DNA from: an uncultured Candidatus Rokubacteria bacterium
GTDB lineage: Bacteria; Methylomirabilota; Methylomirabilia; Rokubacteriales; CSP1-6
Direction: 5' to 3'
Assembly: GCA_963747235.1 (NCBI GenBank)
Contig: CAVVEU010000020.1
Location: forward strand, 32,001 to 96,000
Length of the DNA: 64,000 nucleotides
The position numbers were made by a program, and so were the translations under genes. Every line of letters starts with the position of its first letter. Positions within the stretch are counted from its first letter, which is position 1. This document shows positions 1-51,411 of the stretch, piece by piece. The notes below the pieces were generated by a model. The model had not been told where the DNA came from and ran no database searches. It saw nothing but the letters and a program-made list of their open reading frames with translations.

Positions 1-30
1 GGGCCGCACAAGCCCAGCATGGCTCGACAT
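1..30 (-). CDS. probable 5' end of a gene running off the window edge (MSSHAGLVRP...)
   Basis: ATG at 30-28, 8 nt downstream of a candidate -10 box; only 10 codons visible. Confidence 0.3.
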   Translation of the reverse strand, partial: MSSHAGLVRP

Positions 31-38
31 TGAATCGC

Positions 39-67
39 AGTGTAAGGCCGCGACCCCGATTGATCAA
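39..67 (-). promoter_or_regulatory. candidate sigma70 promoter TTGATC-N17-TACACT
   Basis: Minus-strand -35 TTGATC (67-62), 17-nt spacer, -10 TACACT (44-39), in an AT-richer intergenic patch. Confidence 0.5.
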
Positions 68-113
68 TGAAAATCGAGGGTTTGGAGCGTGCGCCTCGGT
101 GGGCGCCGGGCGA

Positions 114-3469: not shown

Positions 3470-3504
3470 GATATGCCTGAGTCACGGACGCGGTCGCCTG
3501 CGCA

Positions 3505-3575
3505 CGGTTGTCCGCGGCACTGGGGGAGTGCGGGGGCCATTTCTGGCCCCCGCATCGATAGAGCTCAAAGAACTA
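3505..3575 (-). repeat. dispersed REP-like palindromic element, copy A
   Basis: Minus strand reads ...gagctctatcgATGCGGGGGCC-agaaat-GGCCCCCGCActcccccagtgccgcggacaaccg; nearly identical to 29962-30031. Confidence 0.75.
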
Positions 3576-3594
3576 GACGAGTATCCGCAGGAGC

Positions 3595-5804: not shown

Positions 5805-6797
5805 GCCACGGCCTGCCTGACCTCGTGCAGCACCTCGTCCGGCTCGATCCGGGTGAGGCAGACATGGTCGATGGGACAGCGCGGGAGAAAGCACGGCGCG
5901 CACGGCGCCGCGCGATCGAGGGTCCGGCTGTGGCGGCCGCGGGGGGCGGTGAGCCGGCGATCGGTCGGTCCGAAGAGCGTGACGGTGGCCACGTCCATCG
6001 CGGCGGCCAGGTGCGCGACGCCGGTGTCGCCGCTCACGAGGCAGCGCAGGCGCGCGAGCAGGCGCGGCAGCAGCGCGGGCCGGTCGCGCCCGACGAGCGA
6101 CGCGATCGGCCCGCCGGCCGCGAGGGTGACCGCGGCGACGGTGTCCGTGTCGTCGCCGGTGCCCAGCAGGACCGGCGTGAGCCCGGCCGCGGCGAGCCGT
6201 TGCGCGAGGCGCCCGAAGGCCTCCGCGGGCCAGAGCTTCGAGCTGCCGAAGGCCGCGCCCAGATGGAGGCCGACGAGGCGCGCGTCGGCCGCGACGCCCG
6301 GCCTCGACCAGGAGCCGCGCGATCTCGGCGTCCATCGCGTCATCTCGTCGCAGCGTCCATGCCGGCGCCGCGGCGACATCGTTCACGCCGAGCGGCGCCA
6401 GCAGCGCCGCGTACTCGTCCACCTGGTGCAGGCGCGGGGCGGGCAGCGGCAGCGCGTCGGTGAGGAACGCCGCGCGCCCGTCGGTGGCGTAGCCCACGCG
6501 GCGCGCCGCGCGCCAGCGCCAGGCCGCCAGGGCCGACTCGATGGAGCTCGGCAGGAGCACCGCCACGTCGGCGCGCTCGGCCGCGAGCGCCCGCGCCAGG
6601 CGTCGCCGCGCCGCGAGCGGCTTCGGGTAGGACAGGACGACATCGGCGACCCCCTGCCCGGCCAGCAGCGGGGCCCAGCGCCCGACGAGGGTGATGCGCG
6701 CGCCCGGCTCGGCGGCGCGGAGCGCGGCCAGCGTGGGGAGCGCCATCACGGTGTCGCCCAGCCAGTTCGGAGTGCGGACGACGATCGCCGCGCTCAT
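5801..6797 (-). CDS. waaF: ADP-heptose:LPS heptosyltransferase II, GT9 (frameshift near 6300)
   Basis: VRTPNWLGDTVMALP N-terminus; GAAFGSSKLWP and VSGDTGVAHLAAA in the second frame; CAPCFLPRCP C-terminus. Confidence 0.8.
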
Positions 6798-7919
6798 GAG
6801 CAGGGACGGCCCAGCGGCGCGGCGGACAGCACGCCCGCGAGCAGCCGCGACCAGTGATCCTGTCCCGATTCGAGCACGAGCCGCACCGGCAGCACCCAGA
6901 GCGGCAGCGGGGACGGCGGCAGATCGCGGAGCCGCACCCAGTCCTTCTCGGTCGTGATGAGGCCCTCGGCCCCGGCCGCGCGGGCATCCTGCACGAGCTC
7001 CCGCAGATCGCCGGGCGTGAACCAGTGGTGATCGGGGAACTCGGCGAAGGCCACGCGCTGGATTCCCGCGGCGTCGAGCGTGTCGGCGAAGCCCTGGGGC
7101 GAGCCGAGCCCCGCGAAGGCCATGAGTCGCCGGCCCGCCAGCTCCGCCACCGGGACCCGCCGGCCGCTCTGCGTCTCGAGGGCGTCCTGGTGGTGGTAGC
7201 TGGCGGCCAGCACCGCCGCGGTGGGATTGAAGCGCCGCACCATCGCGGTCACCGCCTCCACCGGCCCGGGGCCCGCGGGATTGGTCACCACGATCGCGTG
7301 GGCGCGGGCCAGCCCGGCGAGCGGCTCGCGGAGCATGCCGCGGGGAAAGACACGGGCATTGCCCCACGGCGCGCGGCCCTGCACCACGAGGATCTCCAGG
7401 TCCTTCGCGAGCGTCCGGTGCTGGAAGCCGTCGTCGAGCACGAGGGCGGTCGCCCCGAGCCGCTCGACCGCGACCCGGCCGGCCTCGTAGCGATTCTCGC
7501 CCACCACCACCGCGACGCCGGGCAGTCGCTCGGCGAGCAGCAGCGGCTCGTCGCCGGCGGTGCGCGCGTCGGCCCGCACGCCCTCCCGGTCCGCCACGAC
7601 GTGCACGCCACGGGTGACGCGCCCGTAGCCGCGGCTCACCACCGCGGGCACCGCGCCCAGCTCGCGCAGGGTGCGCACCACCAGCTCCACCGTCGGGGTC
7701 TTGCCGCTGCCGCCCAGCGTGAGATTGCCGACCGAGACGACCGCGCAGGGCAGCCGCCCGGTGCGCAGGATCCTGAAGCGATAGGCCAGGTCGCGGAGCG
7801 CGGAGCGCGCCGCGGTAGCCCAGGCTGAGCGCGGAGAGGCCGACCGTCACCACCGGCGTGTCCGGATCGTCCCAGTACCGGCGCAGCAGCACCTCGGGCG
7901 CCCGGCGCGGGGTCGTCAA
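6794..7919 (-). CDS. lpxK: tetraacyldisaccharide 4'-kinase (frameshift near 7800)
   Basis: VVSVGNLTLGGSGKTP P-loop, SRGYG, GDEPLLLA, LDDGFQH, FPDHH and TTEKD motifs. Confidence 0.88.
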
Positions 7920-9206
7920 GGCGCGATGCCCTGAGCCCGCGGCCACAGGTGACGGCCCACCAGGTCGAGCGTGGCACTCACCGCGCCCTGCCGTCCCGCG
8001 AAGGCCTGGCGGGCGGCCTCGCCCATGCGCCGCGGCGAGATCGCGATCTTCCAGCAGGCGCGCGAGCTCGCGCTCGAGCTCGGGGCCGTCCTTCACGAGG
8101 AGCCCGCCCCCGCTGCGCTGCAGCAGCTCCGCGCCCTCGCGGAAGTTGCTCATGTGCGGGCCCACGAGCACCGGCTTGCCGCGCATCGCCGGCTCCAGCA
8201 CGTTGTGCCCGCCGATCGGCACGAGGCTGCCGCCGACGAAGACGACCTCGGCGAGCGCGTAGAGGGCGGCCAGCTCGCCCACGGTGTCGAGGATCACGAC
8301 CGCGCCGGGCGCGGCGTCCGCGGGGAGGCGGCTGCGCCGGGCCGCGACCAGGCCGCGCTCGCGGATCAGCTCCTCGACCTCGCCGGCGCGCTCCGGGTGG
8401 CGGGGCGCCAGCAGCAGGGCCAGATCCGGGCAGCGCGTCCGCGCGCGCAGGAACGCGTCGAGGACGATCGCTTCCTCGCCGCGGTGCGTGCTGCCCGCGA
8501 TCCAGAGCCGCGCGTCCGCGTCGAGGCGTAGCCGCTCGCGCCAGGCGGCGGCGTCATCGCCGGCCGCCTCCGGCACCAGGTCGCTCTTCAGGTTTCCGGT
8601 CACCACCACGCGCGCGGGCGGCGCGCCGAGCGCGATGATCCGCCGCGCGTCCTCCTCGGTCTGCATCGCGAAGACGGAGACGTTCGCGAGCACGCGCCGC
8701 ATCAGCCCGCGGACCCACCGGTAGCGGCGGAACGACCGGTCGGAGATGCGGCCGTTGGCGATCATGGCCGGGATCCGGCGCCGCGCGAGCGCGCGCAGGA
8801 AGTTGGGCCAGAGCTCGGTCTCGATCGCGATGAAGAAGCGCGGGCGCGCAGCGTCGAGCGCGCGCCGCACCGGACCCGGGAGATCGATCGGGAAGTAGCG
8901 ATGGGTGGCGGTGCCGGCGAGGCGCTCGCCCACGATGCGCGCGCCGGTGGGCGTGATCGTGCTGACCACGATGCCGAGCTCCGGCCAGCGATGGCGGATC
9001 CCCTCGACGAGGGGCACCGCCGCCGCCGACTCGCCCACCGAGACCGCGTGGATCCAGCAGCGCGGCTCGGAAGGCAGTCCGTCGCCGAGCCGCCCGAGAC
9101 GCTGGGCGAGGTCCCGGCCGTAGCCCGCCCGGCGGCGCCGGGCCAGGAAGGCCGGCAGGTACGCGAGGAGCCCGACCCCGAGCACCGCGGAGTAGAGCGC
9201 GTACAT
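7916..9206 (-). CDS. waaA: Kdo transferase (frameshift near 8030)
   Basis: WIHAVSVGE, ETELWPN, GNLKSD, AGSTHRGEE, APRHPER and GGHNVLEPA motifs. Confidence 0.9.
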
Positions 9207-9859
9207 CAGCGGCGCGCCTCCTCGTCCACCTGCCAGCTCAGACCGCGGAGCGCGGCTTCCACGTCCTTGCGGGCCGCTTCGTCGGCTTCGGGGCCGGCGG
9301 CGCGCGCGACGTGGATCGGCTCGCCGAAGCGCACCACGCAGCGGGCGAATGGCCGCGGGATCCGGAACTCGTCCCAGGAGTGCAGTCGCCACTCGCGGGC
9401 GGCGCCCACCGCTACCGGCACGATGGGCGCGCCGGAGAGCCGCGCCAGCGCGATCACGCCGGGCTTGAGCACCTCGCGCGGGCCCCGCGGGCCGTCGGGG
9501 ACGACCACCACCTCGTGTCCGTCGCGCAGGGCGCGGGTGAGCGCGCGCAGGGCTTCCCCGCCGCCGCGCGAGGAGGAGCCGCGCACCGGCACGAGGCCGA
9601 AGCGGCGGATCCAGCGCGCCACGATCTCGCCGTCCCGCGACCGACTCGTGAGCGTGTGGGCGCCGCGCCGGCCGTAGAGACAGGGCAGGAGCAGGAGGCG
9701 GCTGTGCCAGAGCGCGTAGATCAGGGGCGCGCGCGCGGCCCAGAGCGGCGCGATCGCCGCCTCCTCGCGCTGAACGCGCAGGGTACCCGCGAGCATCCGC
9801 AGGGCGATCACGCCGAGGACGGGGCCGGCGGCGAGCGCGAGCGCACCCGGGATCTTCAT
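9206..9859 (-). CDS. DUF374 lysophospholipid acyltransferase family protein (LpxJ-like)
   Basis: WHSR, SRSRDGE, VRGSSSRGG, PDGPRGP and SWDEFRIPRPF motifs; lies between lpxB and waaA. Confidence 0.75.
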   Translation of the reverse strand: MKIPGALALAAGPVLGVIALRMLAGTLRVQREEAAIAPLWAARAPLIYALWHSRLLLLPCLYGRRGAHTLTSRSRDGEIVARWIRRFGLVPVRGSSSRGGGEALRALTRALRDGHEVVVVPDGPRGPREVLKPGVIALARLSGAPIVPVAVGAAREWRLHSWDEFRIPRPFARCVVRFGEPIHVARAAGPEADEAARKDVEAALRGLSWQVDEEARR

Positions 9860-11028
9860 CCGACCCGCGCCGTGTCGAGCACGGCGCGCGCGGCACGAAG
9901 GCCGACGCCCGGCTCGCCGAGGCGCGCCCGCAGGTCCTTGAAGGCCGCCCGCTGGGCGGTGGCCGCCACCGGGTCGTCCAGCAGGCGCGCGGCTTCCTGG
10001 GCCAGGCGCGCGCCGGTCACCTCGCCCTGGATCAGCTCGGGGACGACCACGCGCCCCGACACCAGGTTGGGCAGGCCGATCCACTGCACGCGCGTCAGGG
10101 CGCGGGCGATCAGCTCGGTGAGGCGCGAGACGCGGTAGCAGATGACCATCGGCGCGCCGAGCAGCGCCGCCTCGAGCGTGGCGGTGCCGGAGGCGATGAG
10201 CAGCGTGTCGGCCGCGGCCATGACCTCGTAGGTGCGCCCGCTCACCAGCTCGATGGGCGGGATCCCGGGTCCGGCCGCGCTCATGAGCGTCGCCACCTGC
10301 TCGCGCGCCACGGTGGGCGCGAGGCCGAGCACGAAGCGGCGCCGCCCGTCGTCGGCGGCGAGGCGCCGGGCCGCGTCCAGCATCGAGGGCAGCAGGCGCT
10401 CGATCTCGCCGGGGCGGCTGCCCGGCAGGAGACCGATCAGCGCGTGGCCGGGATCGACGTCGAGCCGCCGGCGGGCTTCGTCACGCGTGAGATCGAGCGG
10501 GAGCACATCCAGCAGCGGATGGCCGACGAAGGTCACCGGCACATGGGCGCGCTCGTAGAGCGGGGGCTCGAACGGGAAGACGGCGAGCACGCGCTTCACG
10601 CGCCGGGCCATCTGGCGGACGCGGCCGGCGCGCCACGCCCAGAGCTGGGGCGGAATGAAGTACACCACCGGCACCCCGGCGCGCCGCGCGCGGCGGGCGA
10701 GGCGCAGGTTGAACTCCGGGAAGTCGATGAGCACGAGGGCGCGCGGACGGTCGGCCAGGAGCCGGCGCCCCATCGCGCGGTACGCGCGGTAGAGCGCCGG
10801 GACGCGCCCCACCGCCTCGCTGGTGCCCACCGCGGCCTGCCCGGTGGGATCCACGATCACCTCCATGCCCGCCGCCGCCATGTGGCCGCCGCCCATGCCG
10901 ACGAGCTGGAGGCCGGGCGAGAGCTCGCGGAGCGCCCGGCAGAGCATGCCGCCGTGGAGATCGCCGGAGGCCTCCCCCGCCGAGAGCATGATCGCCGCGC
11001 GATCCGCGGACGGCTCAGCCGGCGTCAT
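9856..11028 (-). CDS. lpxB: lipid A disaccharide synthase
   Basis: AGEASGDLHG, IDFPEFNL, PQLWAWR, LLPGSR and SGTATLE motifs. Confidence 0.95.
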   Translation of the reverse strand: MTPAEPSADRAAIMLSAGEASGDLHGGMLCRALRELSPGLQLVGMGGGHMAAAGMEVIVDPTGQAAVGTSEAVGRVPALYRAYRAMGRRLLADRPRALVLIDFPEFNLRLARRARRAGVPVVYFIPPQLWAWRAGRVRQMARRVKRVLAVFPFEPPLYERAHVPVTFVGHPLLDVLPLDLTRDEARRRLDVDPGHALIGLLPGSRPGEIERLLPSMLDAARRLAADDGRRRFVLGLAPTVAREQVATLMSAAGPGIPPIELVSGRTYEVMAAADTLLIASGTATLEAALLGAPMVICYRVSRLTELIARALTRVQWIGLPNLVSGRVVVPELIQGEVTGARLAQEAARLLDDPVAATAQRAAFKDLRARLGEPGVGLRAARAVLDTARVG

Positions 11029-11821
11029 CGACGCTCACCACCGTGATGCCCGCCTGGTCGGCGAGCCGTACCACCTCGTCGCGATCGAGGAGCAGCACGC
11101 GGCCGGCCGGGACGGCCAGCGCAGTGGCGCCGCCCTCGCGCATCGCCTCGAGCGTGGCCGCGCCGATGGTGGGGATGTCGAAGCGGTAGTCGTGGGAGGT
11201 CGCCACCGCCTTCACCACCACCGCGCCGGGGCCCGCGAGTCGCCCACCTCTTCGGATCGTCTCGTCGGTTCCCTCGGCGGCCTCCAGCGCCACCGTCACG
11301 CCGCGGGCCCGCACCACCGTCTGGCCGACCCCGTCGGCGGCGAGCCGGCCCGCCAGGCGAAAGCCTGCGCGGATCTCGTCCCACTCGGCGGCCACCGGCG
11401 CGCGCGCGCCGAGCGTGCCCGCGGGCAGGAGCCACGGGGCGAGGAAGTCCCGCTGGTCGAGCACCTCGATGCTCATGCCCGCGAGCGTCGCGACCACCAT
11501 CTGGGAGAGCGCCGCGTCCGAGAGGCCGCCCTGGGCGAGGCCGAGGCCGGCCGCGTCGGCCTGGTCGTACTTCGAGAAGGCACTCGACTTCCAGAACTTG
11601 CCGACGAAGACGGCGGCCTGCGCGCGATGGGCGGCGAGGCCGACGAGCACCGCCTGGATGTCGGTGATGGTGGAGGGGATGAAGACGTCGGCGACCTCGG
11701 CCAGCCCGGGCGCGTCTTCGAAGGCGAACGCGGCGACGCGCCACCCCCGTCGCCTGGCCTCCGCCGCGGCGCGGCCGGGCAGGATCCCGGCCCCGGCCAT
11801 CAGGCCGAGGGTACGCTCCAC
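11015..11821 (-). CDS. lpxI: UDP-2,3-diacylglucosamine diphosphatase LpxI
   Basis: LGLMAGAGILP, GQTVV, ALEAAEGTDETIRR and DYRFDIPTIG motifs; lpx context. Confidence 0.85.
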   Translation of the reverse strand: MERTLGLMAGAGILPGRAAAEARRRGWRVAAFAFEDAPGLAEVADVFIPSTITDIQAVLVGLAAHRAQAAVFVGKFWKSSAFSKYDQADAAGLGLAQGGLSDAALSQMVVATLAGMSIEVLDQRDFLAPWLLPAGTLGARAPVAAEWDEIRAGFRLAGRLAADGVGQTVVRARGVTVALEAAEGTDETIRRGGRLAGPGAVVVKAVATSHDYRFDIPTIGAATLEAMREGGATALAVPAGRVLLLDRDEVVRLADQAGITVVSVDDAG

Positions 11822-12831
11822 GGAAGATCCTTCGGCCAGGCGATCTCGCCCCGGCCCTCGCGGATCATCCGCTCGATCTCCAGCGCGACGGCCAGCGACT
11901 TGAGGTCGTCCGCCTCGGGCAGCTCCACGTGCCCGCCGCCGTCGGCGGCCCGCGCGGCCGAGATCAGATGGCGGATCTCCAGCTTCAGGGGGTTGTCCTT
12001 GTGCACCAGCAGGTGCTCCACGAAGGAGGCCTGGCGGTAGCGGATGGACTCGCGGTTGAGCGTGTATTCCTGCGCGGCGCGCCGGTAGATCTGGATGTCC
12101 TGGTGCGAGTAGTCGAGCAGGATGTAGGCATCCGGCTGGGTGATGGCCAGCGTGCGGATCTTCTCCTCGGTGGCGCGGCTCGCGGTGATGGTGGCCATCG
12201 CCCCCGAGTCGAAGACGATCTGCACGGTGGCCACGTCGGTGACCTGCGACTGCACCGAGGAGCCGACCGCGGTGATCTTGCGCGGCTCGCCGTCCACGAG
12301 GCCCAGCACGATGTCGATGTCGTGGATCATCAGGTCCATCACCACCGAGTCGTTCTGCACGCGCGGCACGAAGGGGCCGAGGCGGCGCGATTCGATCAGG
12401 ATGGGCCGCTCCACGATCTTGCGGAGCTCCTGCACCGCTCCGTTGAAGCGCTCGACGTGGCCCACGTGGAGCACGCGGTTCTGCTCGCGGGCGATCCGGA
12501 ACAGCTCCTTGGCCTCCTCGAGGGTGGCGGTCATGGGCTTTTCGACGAGCACGTGGGCGCCCGCCTCGAGCAGGTCGCGGGCGACCGCGAAGTGCTGCTC
12601 GGTGGGCACCGCCACCGTCGCGAAGTCGATCTGCCCGGCCAGCTCGCGGTGATCGCGGTGGGCGCGCGCGCCGTAGGGGGCCGCGATCCGCTGTGCCTTG
12701 GCGAAGTCGGCGTCCACCACCCCGACGAGCTCCACGCCCCAGATCTCGGCCAGGGCCAGGATGTGGTACTGGCCCATGTGCCCGGCGCCGACCACCGCGC
12801 CGCGGATCTTGGGCTCGGCGGCCTGGCTCAC
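11800..12831 (-). CDS. Gfo/Idh/MocA oxidoreductase, GnnA-like (UDP-GlcNAc 3-dehydrogenase)
   Basis: VVGAGHMG Rossmann motif, VLVEKP, VGHVERFN, DLMIHDID; located between lpxA and lpxI/lpxB. Confidence 0.8.
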   Translation of the reverse strand: MSQAAEPKIRGAVVGAGHMGQYHILALAEIWGVELVGVVDADFAKAQRIAAPYGARAHRDHRELAGQIDFATVAVPTEQHFAVARDLLEAGAHVLVEKPMTATLEEAKELFRIAREQNRVLHVGHVERFNGAVQELRKIVERPILIESRRLGPFVPRVQNDSVVMDLMIHDIDIVLGLVDGEPRKITAVGSSVQSQVTDVATVQIVFDSGAMATITASRATEEKIRTLAITQPDAYILLDYSHQDIQIYRRAAQEYTLNRESIRYRQASFVEHLLVHKDNPLKLEIRHLISAARAADGGGHVELPEADDLKSLAVALEIERMIREGRGEIAWPKDLPWSVPSA

Positions 12832-43382: not shown

Positions 43383-44078
43383 TCAGCGGACACTGGTGCC
43401 GGCCCGGGGTCGCAGCACGAAGAGCAGCCCCATGCCGGCCAGGAAGCCTCCGATGTGGGCAAAGAAGGCCACCCCGCCGCTGGCCCCGAAGCTGCCGAGC
43501 CCGTTGAGCACCTGGACCACGATCCAGAAGCCCAGCACGATCACGGCGGGGATCTTCACCAGGCGGAAGAAGAAGCCCAGGATGATCAGCGTGGTGACGT
43601 GGGCGTGCGGGAAGAGCACCAGGTAGGCGCCCAGGACCCCGGAGACCGCGCCGCTCGCGCCCACCATGGGCACCGGGGAGCCGGGGCCGATGGCGGTCTG
43701 GGCCAGCGCGGCCGCCACGCCCGAGGCCAGGTAGAAGATCAGGTAGCGGCCGTGGCCCAGGACGTCCTCGACGTTGTTCCCGAAGATCCACAGGTAGAGC
43801 ATGTTGCCCGCGATGTGGAAGAGCCCGCCGTGCATGAACATCGAGCTGAAGATGGTCAGGATCGGCGCCGGCAGGTCCAGGGCCCCCCGGCAGGCGCCGG
43901 TGAGCCGGCAGGGCACCAGCCCGAACTCCTCGATGAAGGCCTGCCCGGCCCGCGCGCCCTGCCCGTCGCCCACCTCCAGCGAGAACTGGTAGAGGAAGAC
44001 CAGCGCGTTGGCCAGGATCAGGCCGATGGTGACGATCGGGGTGCTGTGGGCGGGGTTGTCGTCCTTGAGGGGGAACAC
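43383..44078 (-). CDS. rhomboid family intramembrane serine protease
   Basis: MFPLKDDNP, SMFMHGG..H..GNM, GASGA catalytic Ser and AHIGGF catalytic His. Confidence 0.93.
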   Translation of the reverse strand: MFPLKDDNPAHSTPIVTIGLILANALVFLYQFSLEVGDGQGARAGQAFIEEFGLVPCRLTGACRGALDLPAPILTIFSSMFMHGGLFHIAGNMLYLWIFGNNVEDVLGHGRYLIFYLASGVAAALAQTAIGPGSPVPMVGASGAVSGVLGAYLVLFPHAHVTTLIILGFFFRLVKIPAVIVLGFWIVVQVLNGLGSFGASGGVAFFAHIGGFLAGMGLLFVLRPRAGTSVR

Positions 44079-44084
44079 GGACCG

Positions 44085-45386
44085 CTATTGCGCCGCGGGA
44101 CCCAGCGTCACCACGGTGGGCGCGCTCAGATAGGCTCGCGCGACGCGCTGCACGTCCTCGGCCGTCACCACCTCCACCGCGCGCACGTACCGCTCGGCGA
44201 ACCCCGGCCCGACTCCGAGCGCTTCGAAGAAGGCGTCATACCAGGACAGCCGCGCGTTGGTGCGCCGATCCAGCGCGAACTGGCCGAGCAGGTAGCCCTT
44301 GGCGCGCGTGAGCTCGGCCGGGCTCAGGGGCTCGCGGCGGATGCGCTCGAGCTCCCCCAGCATCGCGGTCTCCGCCCGGGCCTGGTTGGCCGGCGCGGTG
44401 CCGAGCTGCGTGAAGAGCACGCCGGGCCCCTCGCGCGACGGATAGGCGCCGCCCGTCGAGTAGGCGAGGCCCTGCTTGTCGCGCACCTCGGTGAAGAGCC
44501 GTCCGGCCATGCCGCCGCCCAGCGCGGTGGCCAGCACCTTCACCGCCGCGTAGTCGGCGTGTGACGTCGGCGGGGCGAGGAAGCCGGCCAGGACCTGGGC
44601 TTGCGCAGACGCCCGCACGATCACGGTGCGGTCCGCGCGCGCGGCGGCCGCGGGCAGTGTGGGCTCGGTCTCCGCGGGGCCGGTGGGGGCGCCGGCGAAG
44701 AGGCGGCTCACCTCCGCCATCACGAGGCGCGTGTCCACGTCGCCGCTCACGGCCAGGATCATGCGCGGGGCCCGGTAGAAACGCTGGTGATGCGCGACCA
44801 GGCGGGCGCGATCGATGCGCTCCAGCGCGGCGGGCCGGCCCAGGATCGGGCGGCCGTACGGATGATCCCCGTACACGCGGCTCATCAGCGTATCCATGGC
44901 CAGCGAGAACGGCTGGTCCTGCCGGCTGCGGAGCGCGGTCAGGGTGGCGCGCCGCTCGCCGTCGATCTCGGCCACGGGCAGCGTGGGCCGCAGCGCGACG
45001 TCGGCGATCAGCTCGAGCATCGTTCGCCAGTTTCGCGCGAGCGCGGTGGCGCGGATCTCCGAGTAGTCCAGGTCGGCCGACGAGCCGATGCCCCCGCCCA
45101 GGTTCTCCGCGGTCTCGGCGACCTCGAGCGCCGAGCGCTTCTCGGTCCCCTTGAGCAGCACCTGCTGGAGCAGATGGCTGATGCCCGCGTCGTCCTCGGT
45201 CTCCCAGCGCGAGCCCATCCGCACGAAGAGCGAGGCCGCCGTCACCGCGGTCGCGGTGTTCTCCCGCACCAGCACGGTGAGGCCGCCGGGGAGCTGCTGG
45301 CGAACCGGCTGCGCCGTCGCCTGCCCCGCCGCGGCCCACCCGAGGGCCACGACCAGCGCGAGAGCCGCCGCGCGCCGCGGGCTCAC
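44085..45386 (-). CDS. exported M16B peptidase, non-catalytic subunit
   Basis: Signal peptide; M16 fold with the zinc motif degenerate (SHLLQQ instead of HxxEH); retains RLFTEVRDKQGLAY. Confidence 0.85.
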   Translation of the reverse strand: MSPRRAAALALVVALGWAAAGQATAQPVRQQLPGGLTVLVRENTATAVTAASLFVRMGSRWETEDDAGISHLLQQVLLKGTEKRSALEVAETAENLGGGIGSSADLDYSEIRATALARNWRTMLELIADVALRPTLPVAEIDGERRATLTALRSRQDQPFSLAMDTLMSRVYGDHPYGRPILGRPAALERIDRARLVAHHQRFYRAPRMILAVSGDVDTRLVMAEVSRLFAGAPTGPAETEPTLPAAAARADRTVIVRASAQAQVLAGFLAPPTSHADYAAVKVLATALGGGMAGRLFTEVRDKQGLAYSTGGAYPSREGPGVLFTQLGTAPANQARAETAMLGELERIRREPLSPAELTRAKGYLLGQFALDRRTNARLSWYDAFFEALGVGPGFAERYVRAVEVVTAEDVQRVARAYLSAPTVVTLGPAAQ

Positions 45387-46732
45387 TGCGCGCGACCCCG
45401 CGGGACGAAGGCCAGCCGCGCGTAGGCGTCGGTGAGGTAGCGGCGCGCCGCCTCCTGCACCTGCGCGCCCGTCACCGCGCGCACGCGGTCCAGGTAGGCG
45501 CGCTCGGCCTCCAGGCTCCAGGTGGTCTCGGCGCGGCCGTACGCCAGCGCCAGGCCTTCCACCGTCTCGCGCGAGAACTCGCGCTGGGCCTCGGAGGCGG
45601 TGATCGAGCGGGCCAGCTCCTCCGGCGTCACGCCGTCCGCCTGGATGCGGCGGATCTCGGCCAGGATGCCGCGCTCCACCGCCTCCTGGTCCGCGCTCTC
45701 GAGCTGCGCGGTCACGCCCACCGCGCCCGCGCCCTGGAGCGCGCCGTACCAGCCGCTGATCCCGGACACCAGCCGCGCCTTCTCGCGCAGGGCCTGGTTG
45801 AGCCGCGAGCTGCGCGAGCCGCCCAGGATGTGGCTCAGCACGTCCACCGCCGGCATGTCGGGATGACCGAGCGGCGGCGCCAGCCACGCGAGGCCGAGCT
45901 GCGTCTGGCGCTCCGGACGCTCCACCGATCGGGTGCGCACGCCGTCCAGCGGCGCCGGCGCGGGCACCGCCGGCCGGGTGTAGCCGGCCCGGGGAATCGC
46001 GCCGAACGCGGCGATCGCGGCGGCGCGGACCTCCGCCGGGTTGACGGGACCGACCACGACCAGGGCCATGTTCTCCGGGACGTAGTGGCGCTTGTAGTAC
46101 CCGCGCAGGGTCTCCTGGGTGGCGCCCCGCAGGTCTCCCGCGTCACCCAGCACGGAGCGCCCGTAGGGGTGGCCCTGGTAGAGCACGCTGTAGAGCTGGC
46201 GGCCCAGGGACGACCGCGGATTGTCCTCGTTCAGCCGCACTTCCTCGAAGACCACGTCGCGCTCGCGCGTGAGCTCGGTCGGATCGAACACGGAGTTGAG
46301 CACCATGTCCGCGATCAGGGAGATTCCGGGCACCGTGCGCGTCGCGGGCAGCAGCAGGTAGTAGAAGGTGTAGTCGTTCGATGTGCCCGCGTTGGTGCGC
46401 CCGCCCACCGCCTCGACGTCGCTCTCGACGAATCCGCGCGGCCGCGTCGCGGTTCCCTTGAAGAGCATGTGCTCCGCGAAGTGCGAGAAGCCGCGCTCGC
46501 CGATCGCCTCGTCGCGCCCGCCCACGCCGGTCCAGAGATGAATCGCGACCGTGGCCGCGGCGCGGTGCTCCTGGATGATGAGCCGCATGCCGTTGGGGAG
46601 CACCTCGCGGATGGGCGCGGGCAATCCACGCGCCCCCGGCGCGGGCGGTGCCGTCACGCATCCACCGAGCGTATATAGGAGGAAGGCGATCGCGCAGACG
46701 CGTACGGCGCATCTGCCGATGGAGGGGGTCAT
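45383..46732 (-). CDS. exported M16B zinc peptidase, catalytic subunit (probable lipoprotein)
   Basis: GFSHFAEHMLFKGT (HxxEH), NAGTSNDYT and ERDVVFEE motifs; N-terminal hydrophobic stretch ending LGGC (lipobox-like). Confidence 0.9.
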   Translation of the reverse strand: MTPSIGRCAVRVCAIAFLLYTLGGCVTAPPAPGARGLPAPIREVLPNGMRLIIQEHRAAATVAIHLWTGVGGRDEAIGERGFSHFAEHMLFKGTATRPRGFVESDVEAVGGRTNAGTSNDYTFYYLLLPATRTVPGISLIADMVLNSVFDPTELTRERDVVFEEVRLNEDNPRSSLGRQLYSVLYQGHPYGRSVLGDAGDLRGATQETLRGYYKRHYVPENMALVVVGPVNPAEVRAAAIAAFGAIPRAGYTRPAVPAPAPLDGVRTRSVERPERQTQLGLAWLAPPLGHPDMPAVDVLSHILGGSRSSRLNQALREKARLVSGISGWYGALQGAGAVGVTAQLESADQEAVERGILAEIRRIQADGVTPEELARSITASEAQREFSRETVEGLALAYGRAETTWSLEAERAYLDRVRAVTGAQVQEAARRYLTDAYARLAFVPRGRAQ

Positions 46733-46840
46733 TGCGGCTACACGGTACCAGAGCCCAAGACAGTTTGCCGGGTCATCTGTCGGGGCCATGCCGGGCAGAA
46801 CGCCCTCGTGGCCCCGGTGGCCGATCGGAGGCCGAAGCCT

Positions 46841-46853
46841 TAAGGTATTGAAA
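46841..46853 (-). promoter_or_regulatory. candidate IHF binding site
   Basis: Minus strand TTTCAA-TACC-TTA against consensus WATCAA-N4-TTR (1 mismatch), about 30 bp upstream of a sigma54-like box. Confidence 0.5.
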
Positions 46854-46882
46854 CTATGGACTAGTTGGACTCTGAAACCCTC

Positions 46883-46898
46883 TGGCATTGCCGGTGCA
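46883..46898 (+). promoter_or_regulatory. candidate sigma54 (-24/-12) promoter
   Basis: TGGCATTGCCGGTGCA has exact GG-N10-GC spacing and faces the repeat-protein gene. Confidence 0.6.
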
Positions 46899-47004
46899 TC
46901 CTATGGCTGCGAGTTGGGGCCCCAGGGGGCCGGGAGAAGAAACCCAAGTGGGACGCGCAGTGAGCAAGAAGTCAGAAACGCAGTCAGAAAGGATGGAAAC
47001 GACG

Positions 47005-48188
47005 ATGAGAAAGTTCCTTGCAGCGACGATGAGTGTAGTGACGGTCTTCTCCCTCTCGGCCACGGTCGGGATGGCGCAGACCACGTCCTGCCCCGAGGTG
47101 GCGTCGGCGAAGGCGATGCTGACGCAGACCGCGAAGAGCCAGGACGTCCAGGCGCCCCGCTCGCTGGCGGGTGCCCGGTCGCAGGACGTGCAGGCCCCGC
47201 GTAGCCAGGACGTCCAGGCGCCCCGCTCGCTGGCGGGTGCCCGGTCGCAGGACGTGCAGGCGCCGCGTAGCCAGGACGTGCAGGCCCCGCGCGGTCAGGA
47301 TGTGCAGGCTCCTCGCGGTCAGAACATCCAGGCTCCTCGCGCCCAGGACGTGCAGGCGCCGCGTGGCCAGGATGTGCAGGCTCCTCGCGGTCAGGACATC
47401 CAGGCTCCGCGTAGCCAGGATGTGCAGGCTCCCCGCGTCAGGACTAGCGGGTGCCCGCGTCGCAGGACGTGCAGGCTCCTCGCGCCCAGGACGTGCAGGC
47501 GCCGCGTGGCGGTCGGCAGGACGTGCAGGCTCCTCGCGGCCAGGACATCCAGGCGCCGCGTGGTCAGGATGTGCAGGCTCCTCGTGGTCAGAACATCCAG
47601 GCTCCTCGCGCGCAGGACGTCCAGGCGCCGCGTGGCCAGGACATTCAGGCCCCGCGTGGTCAGGACGTGCAGGCTCCTCGTAGCCAGGACGTGCAGGCTC
47701 CTCGCGGTCAGAACATCCAGGCTCCTCGCGCCCAGGACGTGCAGGCGCCGCGTGGTCAGGATGTGCAGGCTCCTCGCGGTCAGGACATCCAGGCGCCGCG
47801 TGGCCAGGATGTGCAGGCTCCTCGCGGTCAGAACATCCAGGCTCCTCGCGCCCAGGACGTCCAGGCTCCTCGCGGCCAGGACGTGCAGGCGCCGCGTGGC
47901 CAGGACGTGCAGGCTCCTCGCGGTCAGAACATCCAGGCTCCTCGCGCCCAGGACGTGCAGGCGCCGCGTGGTCAGGATGTGCAGGCTCCTCGTGGTCAGA
48001 ACATCCAGGCTCCTCGCGGCCCAGGACGTGTCCAGGCCCCGCGTGCCCAGGATGTGCAGGCTCCCCGCTCTGCCGAGTTCAAGAAGGCTTCTGGTCTCGT
48101 GACCGAGGCCGAGGCGGCGTGCAAGGCCGGCAACTCGACGCTGGCGGCTGACAAGGCCAAGGCGGCGATGGAGATGCTGAAGAAGTAG
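47005..48188 (+). CDS. secreted tandem-octapeptide-repeat protein of unknown function (frameshift near 47440-47460)
   Basis: SD AAAGGA; signal peptide MRKFLAATMSVVTVFSLSATVGMA; about 36 (G/S/A)Q(D/N)(V/I)QAPR units; one Cys in each flanking helical segment; own terminator. Confidence 0.85.
47137..48068 (+). repeat. 24-bp coding tandem repeat array (about 36 units, with 2-3 SLAGAR spacers near the 5' end)
   Basis: Unit about GGYCAGGAYGTSCAGGCKCCKCGY; most variation is at synonymous positions. Confidence 0.95.
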
Positions 48189-48206
48189 CAGTTCGACGAC
48201 GCAACC

Positions 48207-48246
48207 AACGGCCCCGGGGCGAATCCCCCGGGGCCGTTTCTTTTTG
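48207..48246 (+). terminator. intrinsic terminator
   Basis: AACGGCCCCGGGG-cgaatc-CCCCGGGGCCGTT followed by TCTTTTT. Confidence 0.85.
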
Positions 48247-48258
48247 TGGCGATCGCGG

Positions 48259-49007
48259 TCAGACGAGGCGGGCCCGGAGCCGGGACGACGCGAAGTCCAC
48301 GATCATCACCAGCCCGATCAGCACGAGCAGCACGGTGGCCGCCGCGGGATAGTTCAGGAGCCGCAGGTAGGTCTGGATGTAGAAGCCGATGCCCCCTGCC
48401 CCCACGAAGCCCAGGACCGCCGCCGCCCGGATGTTCGTCTCGAAGCGATACAGCGTGAAGGACAGGAACTGCGGCACGAGCTGCGGGAGCACGCCCCAGC
48501 GCAGCACCTGCAGCGTCGTGGCGCCCGTCGCCCGCACCGCCTCCACCGGCCCCGGCTCGATGGCCTCGATGGCCTCGGAGTACAGCTTGGCCAGCACGGT
48601 CGCCGTGTAGACCAGGACCGCCAGCACGCCCGGGAACGGGCCGAGCCCGACCGCGGCCACGAAGAAGAGCGCGTAGACCAGCGTGTCCACCGCGCGGAAC
48701 GCATTGAGCAGGCTGCGCGCCCAGTAGAAGAGCCAGGGCGGCGCCGCGTTGCGCGCGGCCGCGAAGCCCAGCGGCAGCGCGAGCACCGCCGCCACCGCGG
48801 TGCCCACCACCGCGATCTGGATGGTCTCCACGGCCCCGCGCAGCGCGTTGCCCAGCACCGAGAGATCGGGCGGGACCATGCGACGCAGGAAGTCCCACAT
48901 GAAGGGAAGGCCCTCGATCAGGCGGCCCAGCGAGACTTCGGTCTCCACCGCCGACCAGGCGATGGCCCCCAGGATGACCACCCACGCCGCCCATCGGCTC
49001 CCGCGGC

Positions 49008-49011
<4 letters not shown>
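48259..49011 (-). CDS. phnE: phosphonate/phosphite ABC transporter permease
   Basis: ALFFVAAVGLGP, KLYSEAIE, YRFETNIRAAAVLGFVGAGGIG motifs. Confidence 0.9.
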
Positions 49012-49750
<739 letters not shown>

Positions 49751-50080: not shown

Positions 50081-50152
50081 GGGGCCTCCCGGCTCGTGTA
50101 TAATCCTTGACGCCACGCCATCCTGTCAGCGAATCCGTTGGAGGACAACGAC

Positions 50153-50274
50153 ATGGGTACCTGTCCCAAGTGCAAGCTGCGCATCCGAAAGAACGGCAAC
50201 CACATCAAGCTGGGCTCGGTCTGGCGCCACAAGATGTGCCCGCCAAGCCCGGCCGCGCCGCCAAGAGCGCCTAG
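50153..50274 (+). CDS. small basic C-x2-C-x18-H-x2-C zinc-finger microprotein (about 40 aa; probable 1-nt indel near 50240)
   Basis: TATAAT at 50099-50104, SD GGAGGA, then MGTCPKCKLRIRKNGNHIKLGSVWRHKMCP; adding one C gives ...AKPGRAAKSA* ending at TAG 50272-74. Confidence 0.6.
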
Positions 50275-50392
50275 CTTCCCTCCCCGCTCCATCAGCACAG
50301 TCTCACCGCCGCTGGTCAGGGTAGCCGAAACCGGGCGAGGGTGGGAAGAGCCGTCCAGCGCATCGCGACACGTCCCGACGAGGAGGCCCGGC

Positions 50393-51411
50393 ATGACGGT
50401 CCGGCTCATCGCGCTTCTCCTGCTCGCCACCCTCGTCTCGGTCGGGCTGCCGGCGCCCGCCGGGGCCCAGGCGGTGGGCGACGTCTTCCGGAAGGTGAGC
50501 CCTTCCGTCGTCGTGATCCGATCCAGGGGGCGGGACGTCTCCGCGTCCGGCCAGGTCCGCTTCGGAGAGATCGGCTCCGGCGTGCTGATCTCGGCGGACG
50601 GCAAGGTGATGACGGCGGCCCACGTCGTCCACGCGATGGACGAGATCAACGTGGAGTTCATCGGAGGCGAGACGGTGCCGGCGCGGGTCGTCGCCTCCGA
50701 GCCCGCCGCCGACCTCTCGCTGCTCCAGCTCGATCGCGTGCCCGCCGACGTCCGCGTCTCTCGCCTCGCCGATTCGCGCACCGTCCGCGTGGGCGACCAG
50801 GTGCTGGTCGTGGGCGCGCCGTACGGGCTCGCCTACTCGCTGAGCGTCGGCTACGTCAGCGCCCGCTGGCCGCCGAACAGCGTGTACCCGGCCTTCCCGC
50901 TGGCCGAGTTCTTCCAGACCGACGCCACGATCAACACCGGCAACTCCGGCGGCCCTCTGTTCAACCTGGCGGGTGACGTCATCGGGATCGTGAGCCACAA
51001 CATCTCGAAGGGCGGCGGCAGCGAGGGGCTCGGCTTCGTGGTGACGATCAACACCGCCAAGGATCTCCTGCTCGCCCGGCGCTCCATCTGGAGCGGACTC
51101 GAGGGCCACACCCTGTCGGGGGACCTGGCCGCGATCTTCAACCTGCCCCAGCCCGAGGGCTTCCTGGTCAAGACGGTGGCCAAGGGCTCGCCCGCCGCGG
51201 AGGCGGGGATTCGCGGCGGCAACCGGACCGCGGTCATCGACGGCCAGACGCTGGTGGTCGGCGGCGACGTCCTGCTCGCGGTGGAGGGCATCCCGGCCGG
51301 AAACCTCGCCGACTACAACCGGATGCGCGAGCACTGCAGACGCTGCCGGGGCGCCTCAGTGACGGTGCTGCGGGCCGGCGCGTGCTGAACCTGGTCGGCA
51401 AGGCGCCCTGA
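50393..51411 (+). CDS. HtrA/DegP-like trypsin serine protease with one PDZ domain (3' frameshifts)
   Basis: SD AGGAGG; signal peptide; GSGVLI, TAAHVV, DLSLL and QTDATINTGNSGGPL motifs; PDZ (VAKGSPAAEAGIR). Confidence 0.88.

What the first reader, a model, noticed from the sequence alone, without database searches (positions are those of the whole stretch)
44085..48246. Secreted ~36x octapeptide polyprotein head-to-head with an exported M16 peptidase heterodimer: candidate peptide-precursor and processing system
Seen: a gene with a signal peptide carries about 36 tandem (G/S/A)Q(D/N)(V/I)QAPR units, every one ending in Pro-Arg. It is divergently transcribed from two overlapping exported M16B genes, one with HxxEH and one with a dead motif (HLLQQ), which are followed by a rhomboid. 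Established: active/inactive M16B pairs (PqqF/PqqG, mitochondrial processing peptidase) excise peptides from precursors, and MPP reads Arg near the cut. Multi-copy precursors such as fungal Kex2-processed repeat proteins and neuropeptide precursors are cut at basic residues. Inference: this could be a bacterial multi-core precursor cut in the periplasm into dozens of near-identical peptides. Read as QDVQAPR-G, a unit has an N-terminal Gln (pyroglutamate-prone) and a Gly after it, as in amidated peptide hormones, although no amidating enzyme is visible here. An alternative is an uncleaved disordered periplasmic chaperone or osmoprotectant.
Basis: partly seen in the sequence, partly recalled or inferred. 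Interest (0 to 1): 0.85.

Follow-up and report, generated by a model that had tools for sequence, protein, structure and literature searches.

The report
Rokubacterial secreted octapeptide-repeat protein gene
This is a gene for an exported, mostly disordered protein built of about 36 near-identical eight-residue units, one member of a large uncharacterised family confined to one lineage of uncultured soil bacteria; it sits beside a peptidase pair, but nothing yet shows that the peptidases cut it.

Summary
The repeat array is real: 35 canonical units plus 1 irregular unit of (G/S/A)Q(D/N)(V/I)QAPR. As assembled the gene is not one ORF. A 23-nt linker at 47437-47459 replaces the usual 18-nt SLAGAR linker and breaks the frame. 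Contigs from two other runs carry the in-frame form, so the break is probably a consensus error.

The protein belongs to a large unnamed family: signal peptide, Cys-helix, repeats, Cys-bearing helical hairpin. It was found in 144 of 158 other genomes of one GTDB family of Methylomirabilota and in 0 of 92 genomes of the phylum's other families.

The active/inactive exported M16 pair and the rhomboid are confirmed. An M16A ortholog lies divergently next to the repeat gene in 47 of 71 evaluable loci.

That adjacency looks positional. The sister family has the same RecN-NadK-TlyA-rhomboid-M16B-M16A-HIT block without the repeat gene. Five genomes moved the M16 pair away and kept the repeat gene in place. 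Paralogs sit elsewhere, one lineage beside RtcB.

New here: the family has a conserved sigma-54 (-24/-12) promoter in 53 of 67 loci, with upstream enhancer-like sites.

Best reading: a conditionally induced, exported, multivalent disordered envelope protein. Processing into octapeptides remains possible but has no positive evidence.

The parts
47005..48188 (+). Repeat-protein gene, about 392 aa if the 5 extra bases are ignored. It encodes a signal peptide, an N-terminal Cys-helix (CPEVASAKAMLTQTAK), 36 octapeptide units with SLAGAR linkers, and a C-terminal helical hairpin (KASGLVTEAEAACKAGNSTLAADKAKAAMEMLKK). The frame is broken as assembled.
   Evidence: The start at ATG 47005 comes from alignment of 12 loci, with a conserved AAAGGA ribosome-binding site 11 nt upstream. 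Homologs: (1442 proteins with E<=0.001 among 8000 scored). AF2 on the close homolog P0047: helices 45-64, 131-148 and 152-167 at pLDDT 73-85; repeats below 50.
47437..47459 (+). Frame break: a 23-nt linker where other copies have the 18-nt SLAGAR linker (47161-47178, 47227-47244).
   Evidence: Run X2 contig record 20 (47391-47477, 1 other letter) omits 5 bases (47437, 47440, 47442-3, 47458), giving in-frame PRSLAGARSQ. An X1 loose end at 47460 also lacks the extra base.
48018..48044 (+). Irregular unit GPGRVQAPR: 1+2 inserted bases that restore the frame locally.
   Evidence: The X2 contig (record 24) and an X15 RNA-library contig each omit 3 bases here.
46883..46898 (+). Sigma-54 type -24/-12 promoter, TGGCAT-N5-GTGCA, 122 nt upstream of the start codon.
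   Evidence: The pattern is found upstream in 53 of 67 family loci, paralogs included, and in 0 of 67 on the opposite strand. The window holds 7 matches in 128 kb of both strands, against 4.6 expected. The TGGCA and TGC columns are invariant in alignment A5. The genome has rpoN and 20 Sigma54_activat hits.
46759..46804 (+). Candidate enhancer (UAS) sites: GGCAGAACGCC (46794-46804) and a degenerate copy GACAGTTTGCC (46759-46769), 78 nt upstream of the -24 element. An AT-rich stretch lies between them and the promoter (46840-46859).
   Evidence: Conserved columns in A5. GGCA-N3/4-YGCC is present in 46 of 67 upstream regions at a fixed distance from the promoter; among the paralog loci only L077 has a match, at a different spacing. 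Function as a UAS is inferred.
48207..48238 (+). Intrinsic terminator: 13-bp stem followed by a T-run.
45383..46732 (-). M16B-type peptidase, active subunit (HFAEH), with a lipoprotein-like N-terminus (LGGC; the Cys is at least 90% conserved in orthologs).
44085..45386 (-). M16B-type subunit with a degenerate metal motif (HLLQQ; ortholog consensus NFLQR) and a signal peptide. Its start overlaps the upstream stop (GTGA).
43383..44078 (-). Rhomboid-family intramembrane protease gene, starting 6 nt after the M16 pair.

Best explanation
The locus encodes a Sec-exported, largely disordered tandem-repeat protein of a family so far seen only in one family-level lineage of Methylomirabilota ('Rokubacteria').

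Shown:
- a signal-peptide-like N-terminus;
- a short N-terminal helix and a C-terminal helical hairpin, each with one invariant Cys;
- between them, 5 to more than 40 copies of an 8-residue unit whose Q-x-x-Q-x-P-R core is held by purifying selection;
- a conserved sigma-54 promoter with upstream enhancer-like sites;
- a strong terminator, so the gene is a monocistronic unit.

Inferred mechanism. An enhancer-binding activator encoded elsewhere switches the gene on under a particular condition. The protein is exported. The terminal helices pack together and the two Cys form a disulfide, either within one chain (closing the repeats into a long loop) or between chains (building polymers). The repeat region then acts intact as a flexible, multivalent display of QxxQxPR motifs in the periplasm or on the envelope, as a binding, spacing or protective matrix.

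The position next to the M16 pair is inherited gene order. The gene was inserted between M16A and HIT in an older housekeeping block. The frame break in this assembly is most likely a consensus error.
For: Family and architecture:
- One search found 1442 hits; the sequences and alignments A1 and A2 show the two Cys invariant in 52 sequences.
- AF2 predicts helices at pLDDT 73-85 and repeats below 50.
- No Pfam or NCBIfam family reaches its cut-off. Atlas neighbours are only Methylomirabilota hypothetical proteins.

Selection on the unit:
- 23 distinct 24-mers encode 6 peptides, with synonymous variety and an invariant Q, Q, A, P, R.
- Across species Q1, Q4, P6 and R7 stay fixed while D/E, V/I/L/A and A/S vary.

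Distribution: f1 144 of 158 genomes, other families 0 of 92.

Regulation: sigma-54 promoter in 53 of 67 loci against 0 of 67 on the opposite strand, UAS-like sites, rpoN and 20 activator hits, terminator.

Positional nature of the synteny.

Frame break as error:
- In-frame contigs in X2 and X1.
- Frame breaks in 5 of 13 arrays from assemblies with 'contig_N' names and very long contigs, against 2 of 68 in the others, at scattered single-base indels.
- The genome's second paralog is also broken.

Contigs of one RNA library (X15) cover the unique 5' and 3' ends. This is a weak hint of transcription only.
Against: - No experiment or dataset shows the mature form. An intact protein is assumed, not observed.
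- Such strict conservation of an exact 8-residue unit with contiguous copies is also what a multi-copy peptide precursor would show. A pure spacer would not need it.
- The disulfide and helix packing are inferred. I had no access to model coordinates, and pTM is only 0.36.
- No binding partner is known.
- Adjacency to M16A is retained in 51 of 56 orthologous loci even at 45-53% M16A identity. This is compatible with a functional link.
- If the frame break is real in this strain, this copy would be a pseudogene.
Confidence: 0.45

Rival explanations
1. Multi-copy peptide precursor. After export the repeat region is cut at every unit, after Pro-Arg or one residue later, into about 36 near-identical octapeptides. 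The cutting enzyme would be the neighbouring lipoprotein-anchored M16 heterodimer or another periplasmic protease. The disulfide-linked terminal helices would act as a pro-domain or docking element. The peptides would act as signals, antimicrobials or chelators.
For: - Units are contiguous and of exact length, with an invariant P-R at each boundary, and are kept by purifying selection.
- Copy number varies freely, from 5 to 37 in complete arrays, as expected if the output is simply more peptide.
- An M16A ortholog is adjacent and divergent in 47 of 71 evaluable loci.
- M16B pairs are known to process peptide precursors (AlbE/AlbF for subtilosin) and bacterial M16B enzymes act on short unstructured peptides. 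I read passages of the review PMC12731061.
- Trypsin-like peptidase genes lie nearby: window 50138-51388, and directly downstream in L041.
Against: - The M16 pair and rhomboid block exists without the repeat gene in the sister family.
- Five genomes separate the two, with both retained.
- Paralog lineages sit in other stable contexts, for example beside RtcB in 6 loci.
- The M16 operon has no sigma-54 promoter in the shared spacer, so co-regulation is not evident.
- There are no dibasic sites or spacers as in known polyprotein precursors.
- The strongly conserved folded caps with invariant Cys are unusual for a mere pro-region.
- The only RiPP-family signal (thiovarsolin) is below its cut-off, at 24.2 against 35 bits.
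Confidence: 0.2
2. Cross-linked matrix or envelope polymer. The two terminal Cys form intermolecular disulfides, or the invariant Gln residues serve as transglutaminase-type cross-link donors with the Lys-rich termini. This would build an elastic extracellular or periplasmic network.
For: - There is one invariant Cys near each end.
- Each unit has two invariant Gln.
- The helices are Lys-rich and a Lys near the C-terminus is at least 90% conserved.
- There is a weak resemblance to Cornifin/SPRR, which are cross-linked envelope proteins: 22.2 bits, below the 34.8 cut-off.
Against: The Cornifin match is sub-threshold and probably compositional. No transglutaminase was looked for or seen in the locus. 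AF2 places the N- and C-terminal helices as confident elements of one chain, but the contacts could not be inspected.
Confidence: 0.12
3. This particular copy is a pseudogene: the frame break at 47437-47459 is real in this strain.
For: The sequence as given has the break. The genome's second paralog is broken too.
Against: - Near-identical contigs from two other runs are in frame at that spot.
- The repeats downstream of the break remain perfectly conserved at the peptide level.
- Breaks are enriched in long-contig assemblies and occur at scattered positions.
Confidence: 0.1

Closest known systems
Polyprotein peptide precursors cut at basic residues (fungal Kex2-processed repeat proteins, yeast alpha-factor, neuropeptide precursors). 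Named from my own knowledge; not tested by any search.
   Same: A signal peptide followed by many tandem, near-identical short units, each ending in a basic residue, with variable copy number.
   Different: Units here are contiguous, without spacers, and end in a single Arg preceded by Pro rather than a dibasic site. The host is bacterial with Sec export to the periplasm. Conserved Cys-bearing helical caps flank the array. No processing has been shown.
M16B heterodimers that mature peptide precursors (AlbE/AlbF for subtilosin; PqqF for PQQ) and the mitochondrial processing peptidase
   Same: One HxxEH subunit plus one subunit with a dead motif, encoded by overlapping genes. Family members act on unstructured peptides (passages of PMC12731061).
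   Different: Here both subunits carry export signals. The pair belongs to a housekeeping block that exists without the repeat gene in the sister family. No substrate is known. The best NCBIfam scores are far below the equivalog cut-offs (76 against 285-320 bits).
Thiovarsolin-type multi-core RiPP precursors (NCBIfam NF033878)
   Same: Repetitive precursor with APR-containing repeats; weak profile match.
   Different: The score of 24.2 is below the cut-off of 35, and no stretch passes on its own. The present protein has a signal peptide. The ORFs listed for 40-52 kb and the neighbours named by Pfam include nothing that looks like a RiPP maturation enzyme; no YcaO or TfuA profile was searched specifically.
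Secreted or periplasmic intrinsically disordered repeat proteins and hydrophilins (a general class; named from my own knowledge)
   Same: Exported, hydrophilic, charge-balanced, predicted disordered (pLDDT below 50), with variable repeat number.
   Different: The exact motif is conserved far more strictly than in typical disordered spacers. The array has folded, Cys-bearing caps, and expression is sigma-54 dependent.

Membership tests
M16B active/inactive peptidase heterodimer | Both chains carry Peptidase_M16 (N) and Peptidase_M16_C domains of about 45-50 kDa | tested here: met
   PF00675 at 96.1 and 80 bits, PF05193 at 122.9 and 114.7 bits, all above the cut-offs.
M16B active/inactive peptidase heterodimer | HxxEH zinc motif in one chain only | tested here: met
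   HFAEH in 45383-46732; HLLQQ in 44085-45386. In 24 orthologs H84, E87 and H88 are invariant in the first chain, and the second has consensus NFLQR.
M16B active/inactive peptidase heterodimer | The two chains form a heterodimer that cleaves peptides | not testable with these tools
   Only the gene overlap GTGA suggests co-translation.
Multi-copy (polyprotein) secreted peptide precursor | Signal peptide plus tandem identical core units | tested here: met
   The signal peptide is read from the sequence; no predictor was run.
Multi-copy (polyprotein) secreted peptide precursor | Recognised processing sites (dibasic or spacer) between the units | tested here: not met
   Units abut directly. There is a single Arg after Pro and no KR/RR.
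Multi-copy (polyprotein) secreted peptide precursor | Released peptides observed, or a dedicated protease genetically tied to the precursor | tested here: inconclusive
   M16A is adjacent in 47 of 71 evaluable loci. However, the M16 block exists without the gene, is relocated in 5 genomes, and is absent at 15 paralog loci. No peptide data are available.
Thiovarsolin RiPP (NF033878) | Score at or above the curated cut-off | tested here: not met
   24.2 bits against 35, with 0 stretches passing.
Pfam families hit by the repeat region (Peptidase_M23, Gp5_trimer_C, Cornifin) | A domain match that passes on its own, at or above the gathering score | tested here: not met
   No stretch passes for any of the three. 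Whole-protein scores: Gp5_trimer_C 28.0 against 30.9 and Cornifin 22.2 against 34.8 are below the cut-off; Peptidase_M23 31.2 exceeds its 28.7 only as a sum over repeats. These are compositional matches to the repeats.
Sigma-54 dependent gene | GG at -24 and GC at -12 with canonical spacing (TGGCAC-N5-TTGCW type), upstream of the start | tested here: met
   The window has TGGCATTGCCGGTGCA at 46883-46898. Conserved in 53 of 67 loci against 0 of 67 on the other strand. The consensus itself is recalled from my own knowledge.
Sigma-54 dependent gene | The organism has RpoN and enhancer-binding activators | tested here: met
   PF04552: 1 match at 210 bits. PF00158: 20 matches above the cut-off, none on the window's contig.
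Sigma-54 dependent gene | Transcription start and activator dependence demonstrated | not testable with these tools
   Only contigs, not raw reads, were available.
Bacterial lipoprotein (for the repeat protein) | Lipobox [LVI][ASTVI][GAS]C at the end of the signal peptide (recalled motif) | tested here: not met
   Residues before the invariant Cys are variable (TS, SN, DK, DQ, SP, QP and others). The Cys lies 2-5 residues after an AxA-type site.

The most novel reading that the evidence does not exclude
A bacterial, Sec-exported polyprotein. Under sigma-54 control the cell would export a protein that periplasmic proteases cut after every Pro-Arg into about 36 copies of one octapeptide. The candidates are the neighbouring lipoprotein-anchored M16 heterodimer or a trypsin-like enzyme. 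A disulfide-linked two-helix remnant would be left behind, much as proinsulin loses its connecting peptide. This would be a peptide-hormone-style production line in an uncultured soil phylum, with the peptides acting as signals or effectors.
Probability: 0.15. Interest if true: 0.85.

Novelty: new variant of a known kind. Interest (0 to 1): 0.55.

Why it matters
Rokubacteria are abundant, uncultured soil and subsurface bacteria with almost no experimentally characterised proteins.

This family is nearly universal in one of their families (144 of 158 genomes) and often has several matching places per genome. Words of the repeat stretch turn up in runs of 17 studies (soil, sediment, bog). The family has no Pfam or NCBIfam model, and four literature searches found no mention of it.

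It combines features that make it tractable:
- a simple invariant motif;
- a defined promoter class with candidate enhancer sites;
- a clear, cheap biochemical test: does the neighbouring M16 pair cut it?

If it is a multi-copy peptide precursor, it would be a new mode of peptide production in bacteria. If it acts intact, it is a striking case of a strictly conserved multivalent motif in an exported disordered protein.

The work also shows that these genes are systematically mis-assembled. They are collapsed or truncated in short-read MAGs and frameshifted in long-read MAGs, so they are probably under-annotated.

Tried and rejected
Complex prediction. I submitted the M16A and M16B alignments with a 56-residue, 7-unit repeat segment. 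The verdict was 'no answer' (score 0.00, mark 0.32; controls were not run). It counts neither for nor against binding.

Fold search of the AF2 model against the PDB. No match had E<=0.001; the best was E=2, small helical proteins. Nothing usable.

ESM Atlas. The neighbours were only unnamed Methylomirabilota clusters.

Rfam on 46500-48400. No match, so there is no known RNA element in the spacer.

Sigma-70 consensus scan. None found.

Literature.
- Motif strings QDVQAPR, QDIQAPR, QAPRGQD and DVQAPRG, matched anywhere: 0 papers.
- Rokubacteria + repeat + signal peptide + M16, Rokubacteria + metaproteom + hypothetical protein, and tandem repeat/octapeptide/periplasm/sigma-54/disordered: nothing on this family in the listings.
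- Of PMC12731061 I read only the passages returned by 'find'. Supplements are closed and were not seen; metaproteomic tables there could bear on whether the protein is detected.

Programmed frameshift. Rejected: the breaks in other assemblies are single-base indels at scattered positions, and near-identical contigs are in frame.

Lipoprotein or Lpp-like tether. Rejected for lack of a lipobox.

RiPP (thiovarsolin). Rejected as sub-threshold.

Regulon search with the UAS-plus-promoter pattern in the window's own genome. It found one further site, on contig C5, upstream of a small secreted helical ORF. One extra hit is too little to define a regulon.

Depth in the RNA library X15 is high over the repeats, but it sums contigs of many relatives and cannot rank expression. 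I did not use it as evidence of level. Coverage gaps in the laid runs are not used either.

Full report
WHAT IS IN THE SEQUENCE

Tandem Repeats Finder reports a 24-nt array across 47137-48068 (period 24, 33.9 copies; period 48, score 845). Translation gives 35 canonical octapeptides and one irregular unit. The canonical units are GQDVQAPR x9, SQDVQAPR x8, AQDVQAPR x7, GQNIQAPR x6, GQDIQAPR x4 and RQDVQAPR x1. The irregular unit is GPGRVQAPR. All units end in Pro-Arg.

The array is preceded by MRKFLAATMSVVTVFSLSATVGMA|QTTSCPEVASAKAMLTQTAK. I read this as a Sec signal peptide followed by a short helix. It is followed by SAEFKKASGLVTEAEAACKAGNSTLAADKAKAAMEMLKK. A 13-bp-stem terminator follows at 48207-48238.

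The array is not one ORF as assembled. After eleven units the usual 18-nt SLAGAR linker (present at 47161 and 47227) is replaced by 23 nt at 47437-47459, and the repeats continue in another frame.

IS THE BREAK REAL?

I laid Logan contigs of four runs on the gene. One contig of run X2 (record 20, 47391-47477, one other mismatch) omits exactly five bases (47437, 47440, 47442-3, 47458), which restores PRSLAGARSQ in frame. A contig end in X1 at 47460 also lacks the extra base. At the irregular unit (48018-48044), X2 and the RNA-library run X15 each omit three bases.

The genome's second family member, on contig C39, is also frame-broken just after the N-terminal helix.

Across 79 related loci I counted 81 arrays.
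- Arrays read in two frames number 5 of 13 in assemblies whose contigs are named 'contig_N' and reach megabase length. I infer that these are long-read assemblies.
- In the other assemblies the figure is 2 of 68: one is a scaffold gap of N and one is a deletion.
- The breaks are single-base indels at scattered places.

I conclude that the break is most likely a consensus error and that the gene encodes about 392 aa. A strain-specific pseudogene remains possible (about 10%).

The same comparison shows that long arrays are normal. Complete arrays have a median of 32 units in the long-contig assemblies (n=13) and 14 in the others (n=43). In the others, 25 of 68 arrays are cut by a contig end.

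THE FAMILY

A search with the 245-aa downstream ORF found 1442 proteins with E<=0.001 among 8000 scored. The few that carry names are hypothetical proteins of Rokuibacteriota or Methylomirabilota.

All 18 sequences I read share one plan: a signal peptide, a CP(P/A)E(V/L)xxAK helix, units Q-[DE]-[VILA]-Q-[AS]-P-R-[GSA] with occasional (S/T)LAGA(R/K) linkers, and a C-terminal ...LVxEAEAACKxG(D/N)...KAxxA...LK. In a 52-sequence alignment the two Cys are invariant.

AlphaFold2 on the closest intact homolog (P0047, 168 aa) gave helices 45-64 (pLDDT about 74) and 131-148 plus 152-167 (83-85). The repeats scored below 50, with pTM 0.36.

No Pfam or NCBIfam model reaches its cut-off with a stretch that passes on its own. 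The PDB fold search gave nothing below E=1. The Atlas gave only unnamed Methylomirabilota clusters.

Within the window's array, 23 distinct 24-mers encode 6 peptides. Ala uses 3 codons, Pro 3, Arg 2, Asp 2 and Val 2, with no replacement at Q2, Q5, A6, P7 or R8. The units are therefore held by selection on the peptide, not only by recent duplication.

DISTRIBUTION

Among 251 genomes of the phylum, the family profile matches 144 of 158 other genomes of the window's own GTDB family (f1). It matches 0 of 92 genomes in the twelve other families, including 0 of 21 in the sister family f2 of the same order. Three unpublished genomes are among those counted.

Several MAGs labelled as other phyla, even an archaeon, carry the locus with flanking genes 85-97% identical to the window. 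I read these as binning or labelling errors.

THE NEIGHBOURS

On the minus strand lie, in order:
- an M16 gene with HFAEH and a lipoprotein-like LGGC N-terminus (45383-46732);
- an M16 gene with HLLQQ and a signal peptide (44085-45386), overlapping the first by GTGA;
- a rhomboid gene 6 nt further on (43383-44078).

These rest. Next come S4/FtsJ (TlyA-type), NAD kinase and RecN-type genes. Downstream of the repeat gene are an ABC permease and ATPase, a HIT protein and a trypsin-like/PDZ peptidase. In 24 orthologs the H-x-x-E-H residues of the first chain are invariant, and the second chain always has a dead motif.

IS THE M16 ADJACENCY FUNCTIONAL?

The 79 loci from one-genome-per-species contigs are the best 80 of 161 tblastn-confirmed stretches, so they are biased towards orthologs of the query. 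They sort as follows:

| Arrangement | Loci |
|---|---|
| M16A divergent, 391-622 nt before the first unit (M16A identity down to 45%) | 47 |
| One gene (GAF-GGDEF) between M16A and the repeat gene | 4 |
| Same RecN-NadK-TlyA(-rhomboid) block, repeat gene in place, no M16 pair | 5 |
| Unrelated loci | 15 |
| Too little upstream sequence to evaluate | 8 |

Four observations nevertheless point to inherited position rather than coupling.

1. In four genomes of sister family f2, which lacks the repeat family, the block RecN-NadK-TlyA-...-rhomboid-M16B-M16A is present. M16A there lies 56-390 nt (between HSPs) from the HIT gene, and no repeat array is present. The repeat gene was therefore inserted between M16A and HIT in the ancestor of f1, and the peptidase pair predates it.

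2. The five genomes without M16 at the locus do have the orthologous pair (46-51% identity, like other distant orthologs), but elsewhere. It has none of the block genes nearby, and no repeat array within 1.5 kb (five genomes) or about 7 kb (three genomes). One of the five is an unpublished genome.

3. Paralogs live in other stable contexts. One lineage (6 loci, including the window genome's own second copy) lies between RtcB and CBS/DksA-type genes.

4. The adjacency is no better conserved than that of the plainly unrelated RecN, NAD kinase and TlyA-type genes in the same block.

The complex prediction gave no verdict and counts for nothing.

REGULATION (NEW)

The 272-nt spacer between the two start codons holds a sigma-54 type promoter, TGGCATTGCCGGTGCA, at 46883-46898. 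The pattern TGGYA-N7-YGCH occurs in the 260 nt upstream of the start in 53 of 67 family loci with an identifiable start, including 7 paralog loci. It occurs in 0 of 67 on the opposite strand. In the window it occurs 7 times in 128 kb of both strands, against 4.6 expected.

Seventy-eight nt upstream of the -24 element lies GGCAGAACGCC (46794-46804), and 35 nt further up a degenerate copy. GGCA-N3/4-YGCC is found in 46 of 67 upstream regions, mostly at that fixed distance. Among the paralog loci only L077 has a match, at a different spacing. An AT-rich stretch lies between these sites and the promoter.

This is the layout of an enhancer-dependent promoter. That the sites bind an activator is my inference. 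The genome has rpoN and 20 Sigma54_activat hits, none on this contig. The same composite pattern occurs once more in the genome, upstream of a small secreted helical ORF. No sigma-54 motif faces the M16 operon.

HOW IT MOST LIKELY WORKS

Shown: the gene, its repeats, its caps, its restriction to one lineage, the selection on the unit, the promoter motif, and the history of the synteny.

Inferred: export by Sec; pairing and disulfide bonding of the terminal helices; action of the repeat region as an intact, flexible, multivalent QxxQxPR display in the envelope; induction by an unknown activator. I give this reading about 0.45.

The polyprotein reading, cutting at every unit by the M16 pair or by a trypsin-like enzyme, keeps about 0.2, with about 0.1 for the M16 pair specifically. 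The exactness of the unit is what a multi-copy precursor would show, and P2-Pro/P1-Arg followed by Gly, Ser or Ala is a good protease site (recalled, not tested). A cross-linked polymer (about 0.12) and a true pseudogene (about 0.1) are further rivals.

COMPARISON WITH KNOWN SYSTEMS

The peptidases meet the sequence criteria of an M16B active/inactive pair. Heterodimer formation and a substrate could not be tested. Passages of a 2025 review (PMC12731061) confirm three points: bacterial M16B enzymes are mostly of unknown physiological substrate, AlbE/AlbF matures subtilosin, and periplasmic FusC/PqqL exist.

The repeat protein resembles eukaryotic polyprotein precursors in plan. It fails their defining dibasic or spacer sites, and no released peptides are known. 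It is not a thiovarsolin-type RiPP (24.2 against 35 bits), nor a lipoprotein. It is best filed as a new family within the broad class of exported disordered repeat proteins.

VERDICT

The object is a genuine, conserved, lineage-specific, sigma-54 controlled gene family of unknown role. It deserves a simple biochemical test. Interest 0.55.

Noticed in passing
G000:C39:~48891-49401 (L003 1332-1842): A second family member in the same genome, lying between RtcB and CBS/DksA-type genes. Its frame is also broken, right after the N-terminal helix (KSAQAS*). Intact orthologs such as P0050 exist elsewhere.
   Followed up: partly
G000:C5:106038-106139 (-), L105: The only other place in the genome with the GGCA-N3-YGCC ... 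TGGCAY-N6-TGCH composite. It lies upstream of a small ORF with a signal-peptide-like start (MRHRPRSVSLLPLLFLLLLG...). A beta-barrel-looking ORF runs divergently. This may be a co-regulated gene.
   Followed up: partly
L037, L040, L041, L060 (e.g. L041 8464-9720 and 10864-12477): In one sub-lineage a GAF-GGDEF diguanylate cyclase gene sits between M16A and the repeat gene. A trypsin-like peptidase gene follows the repeat gene directly.
   Followed up: partly
L009, L011, L017, L019, L021, L024, L026, L030, L054, L058, L061, L067 (record titles): MAGs labelled Deferrimicrobiaceae, Limnocylindria, Acidoferrum, Dormiibacterota, Verrucomicrobiia, Binatia and even Nitrosotalea carry this family. Where flanks are present, most (L009, L011, L019, L024, L026, L030, L067) are 77-98% identical to the window's. 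This points to mis-binned or mislabelled contigs rather than gene transfer.
   Followed up: no
window 47089-47100: The N-terminal motif is CPEV here but CP(P/A)EV in all relatives I read. The window is one codon shorter, either a real 3-nt deletion or another consensus error.
   Followed up: no
window 1-12000: G+C is 74-77% here, against 65-73% further along the window. Not examined.
   Followed up: no
window 47248-48068: The array has higher-order periodicity (48- and 72-nt periods; recurring GQNIQAPR-AQDVQAPR-GQDVQAPR blocks). This suggests expansion by duplication of 2-3-unit blocks.
   Followed up: no
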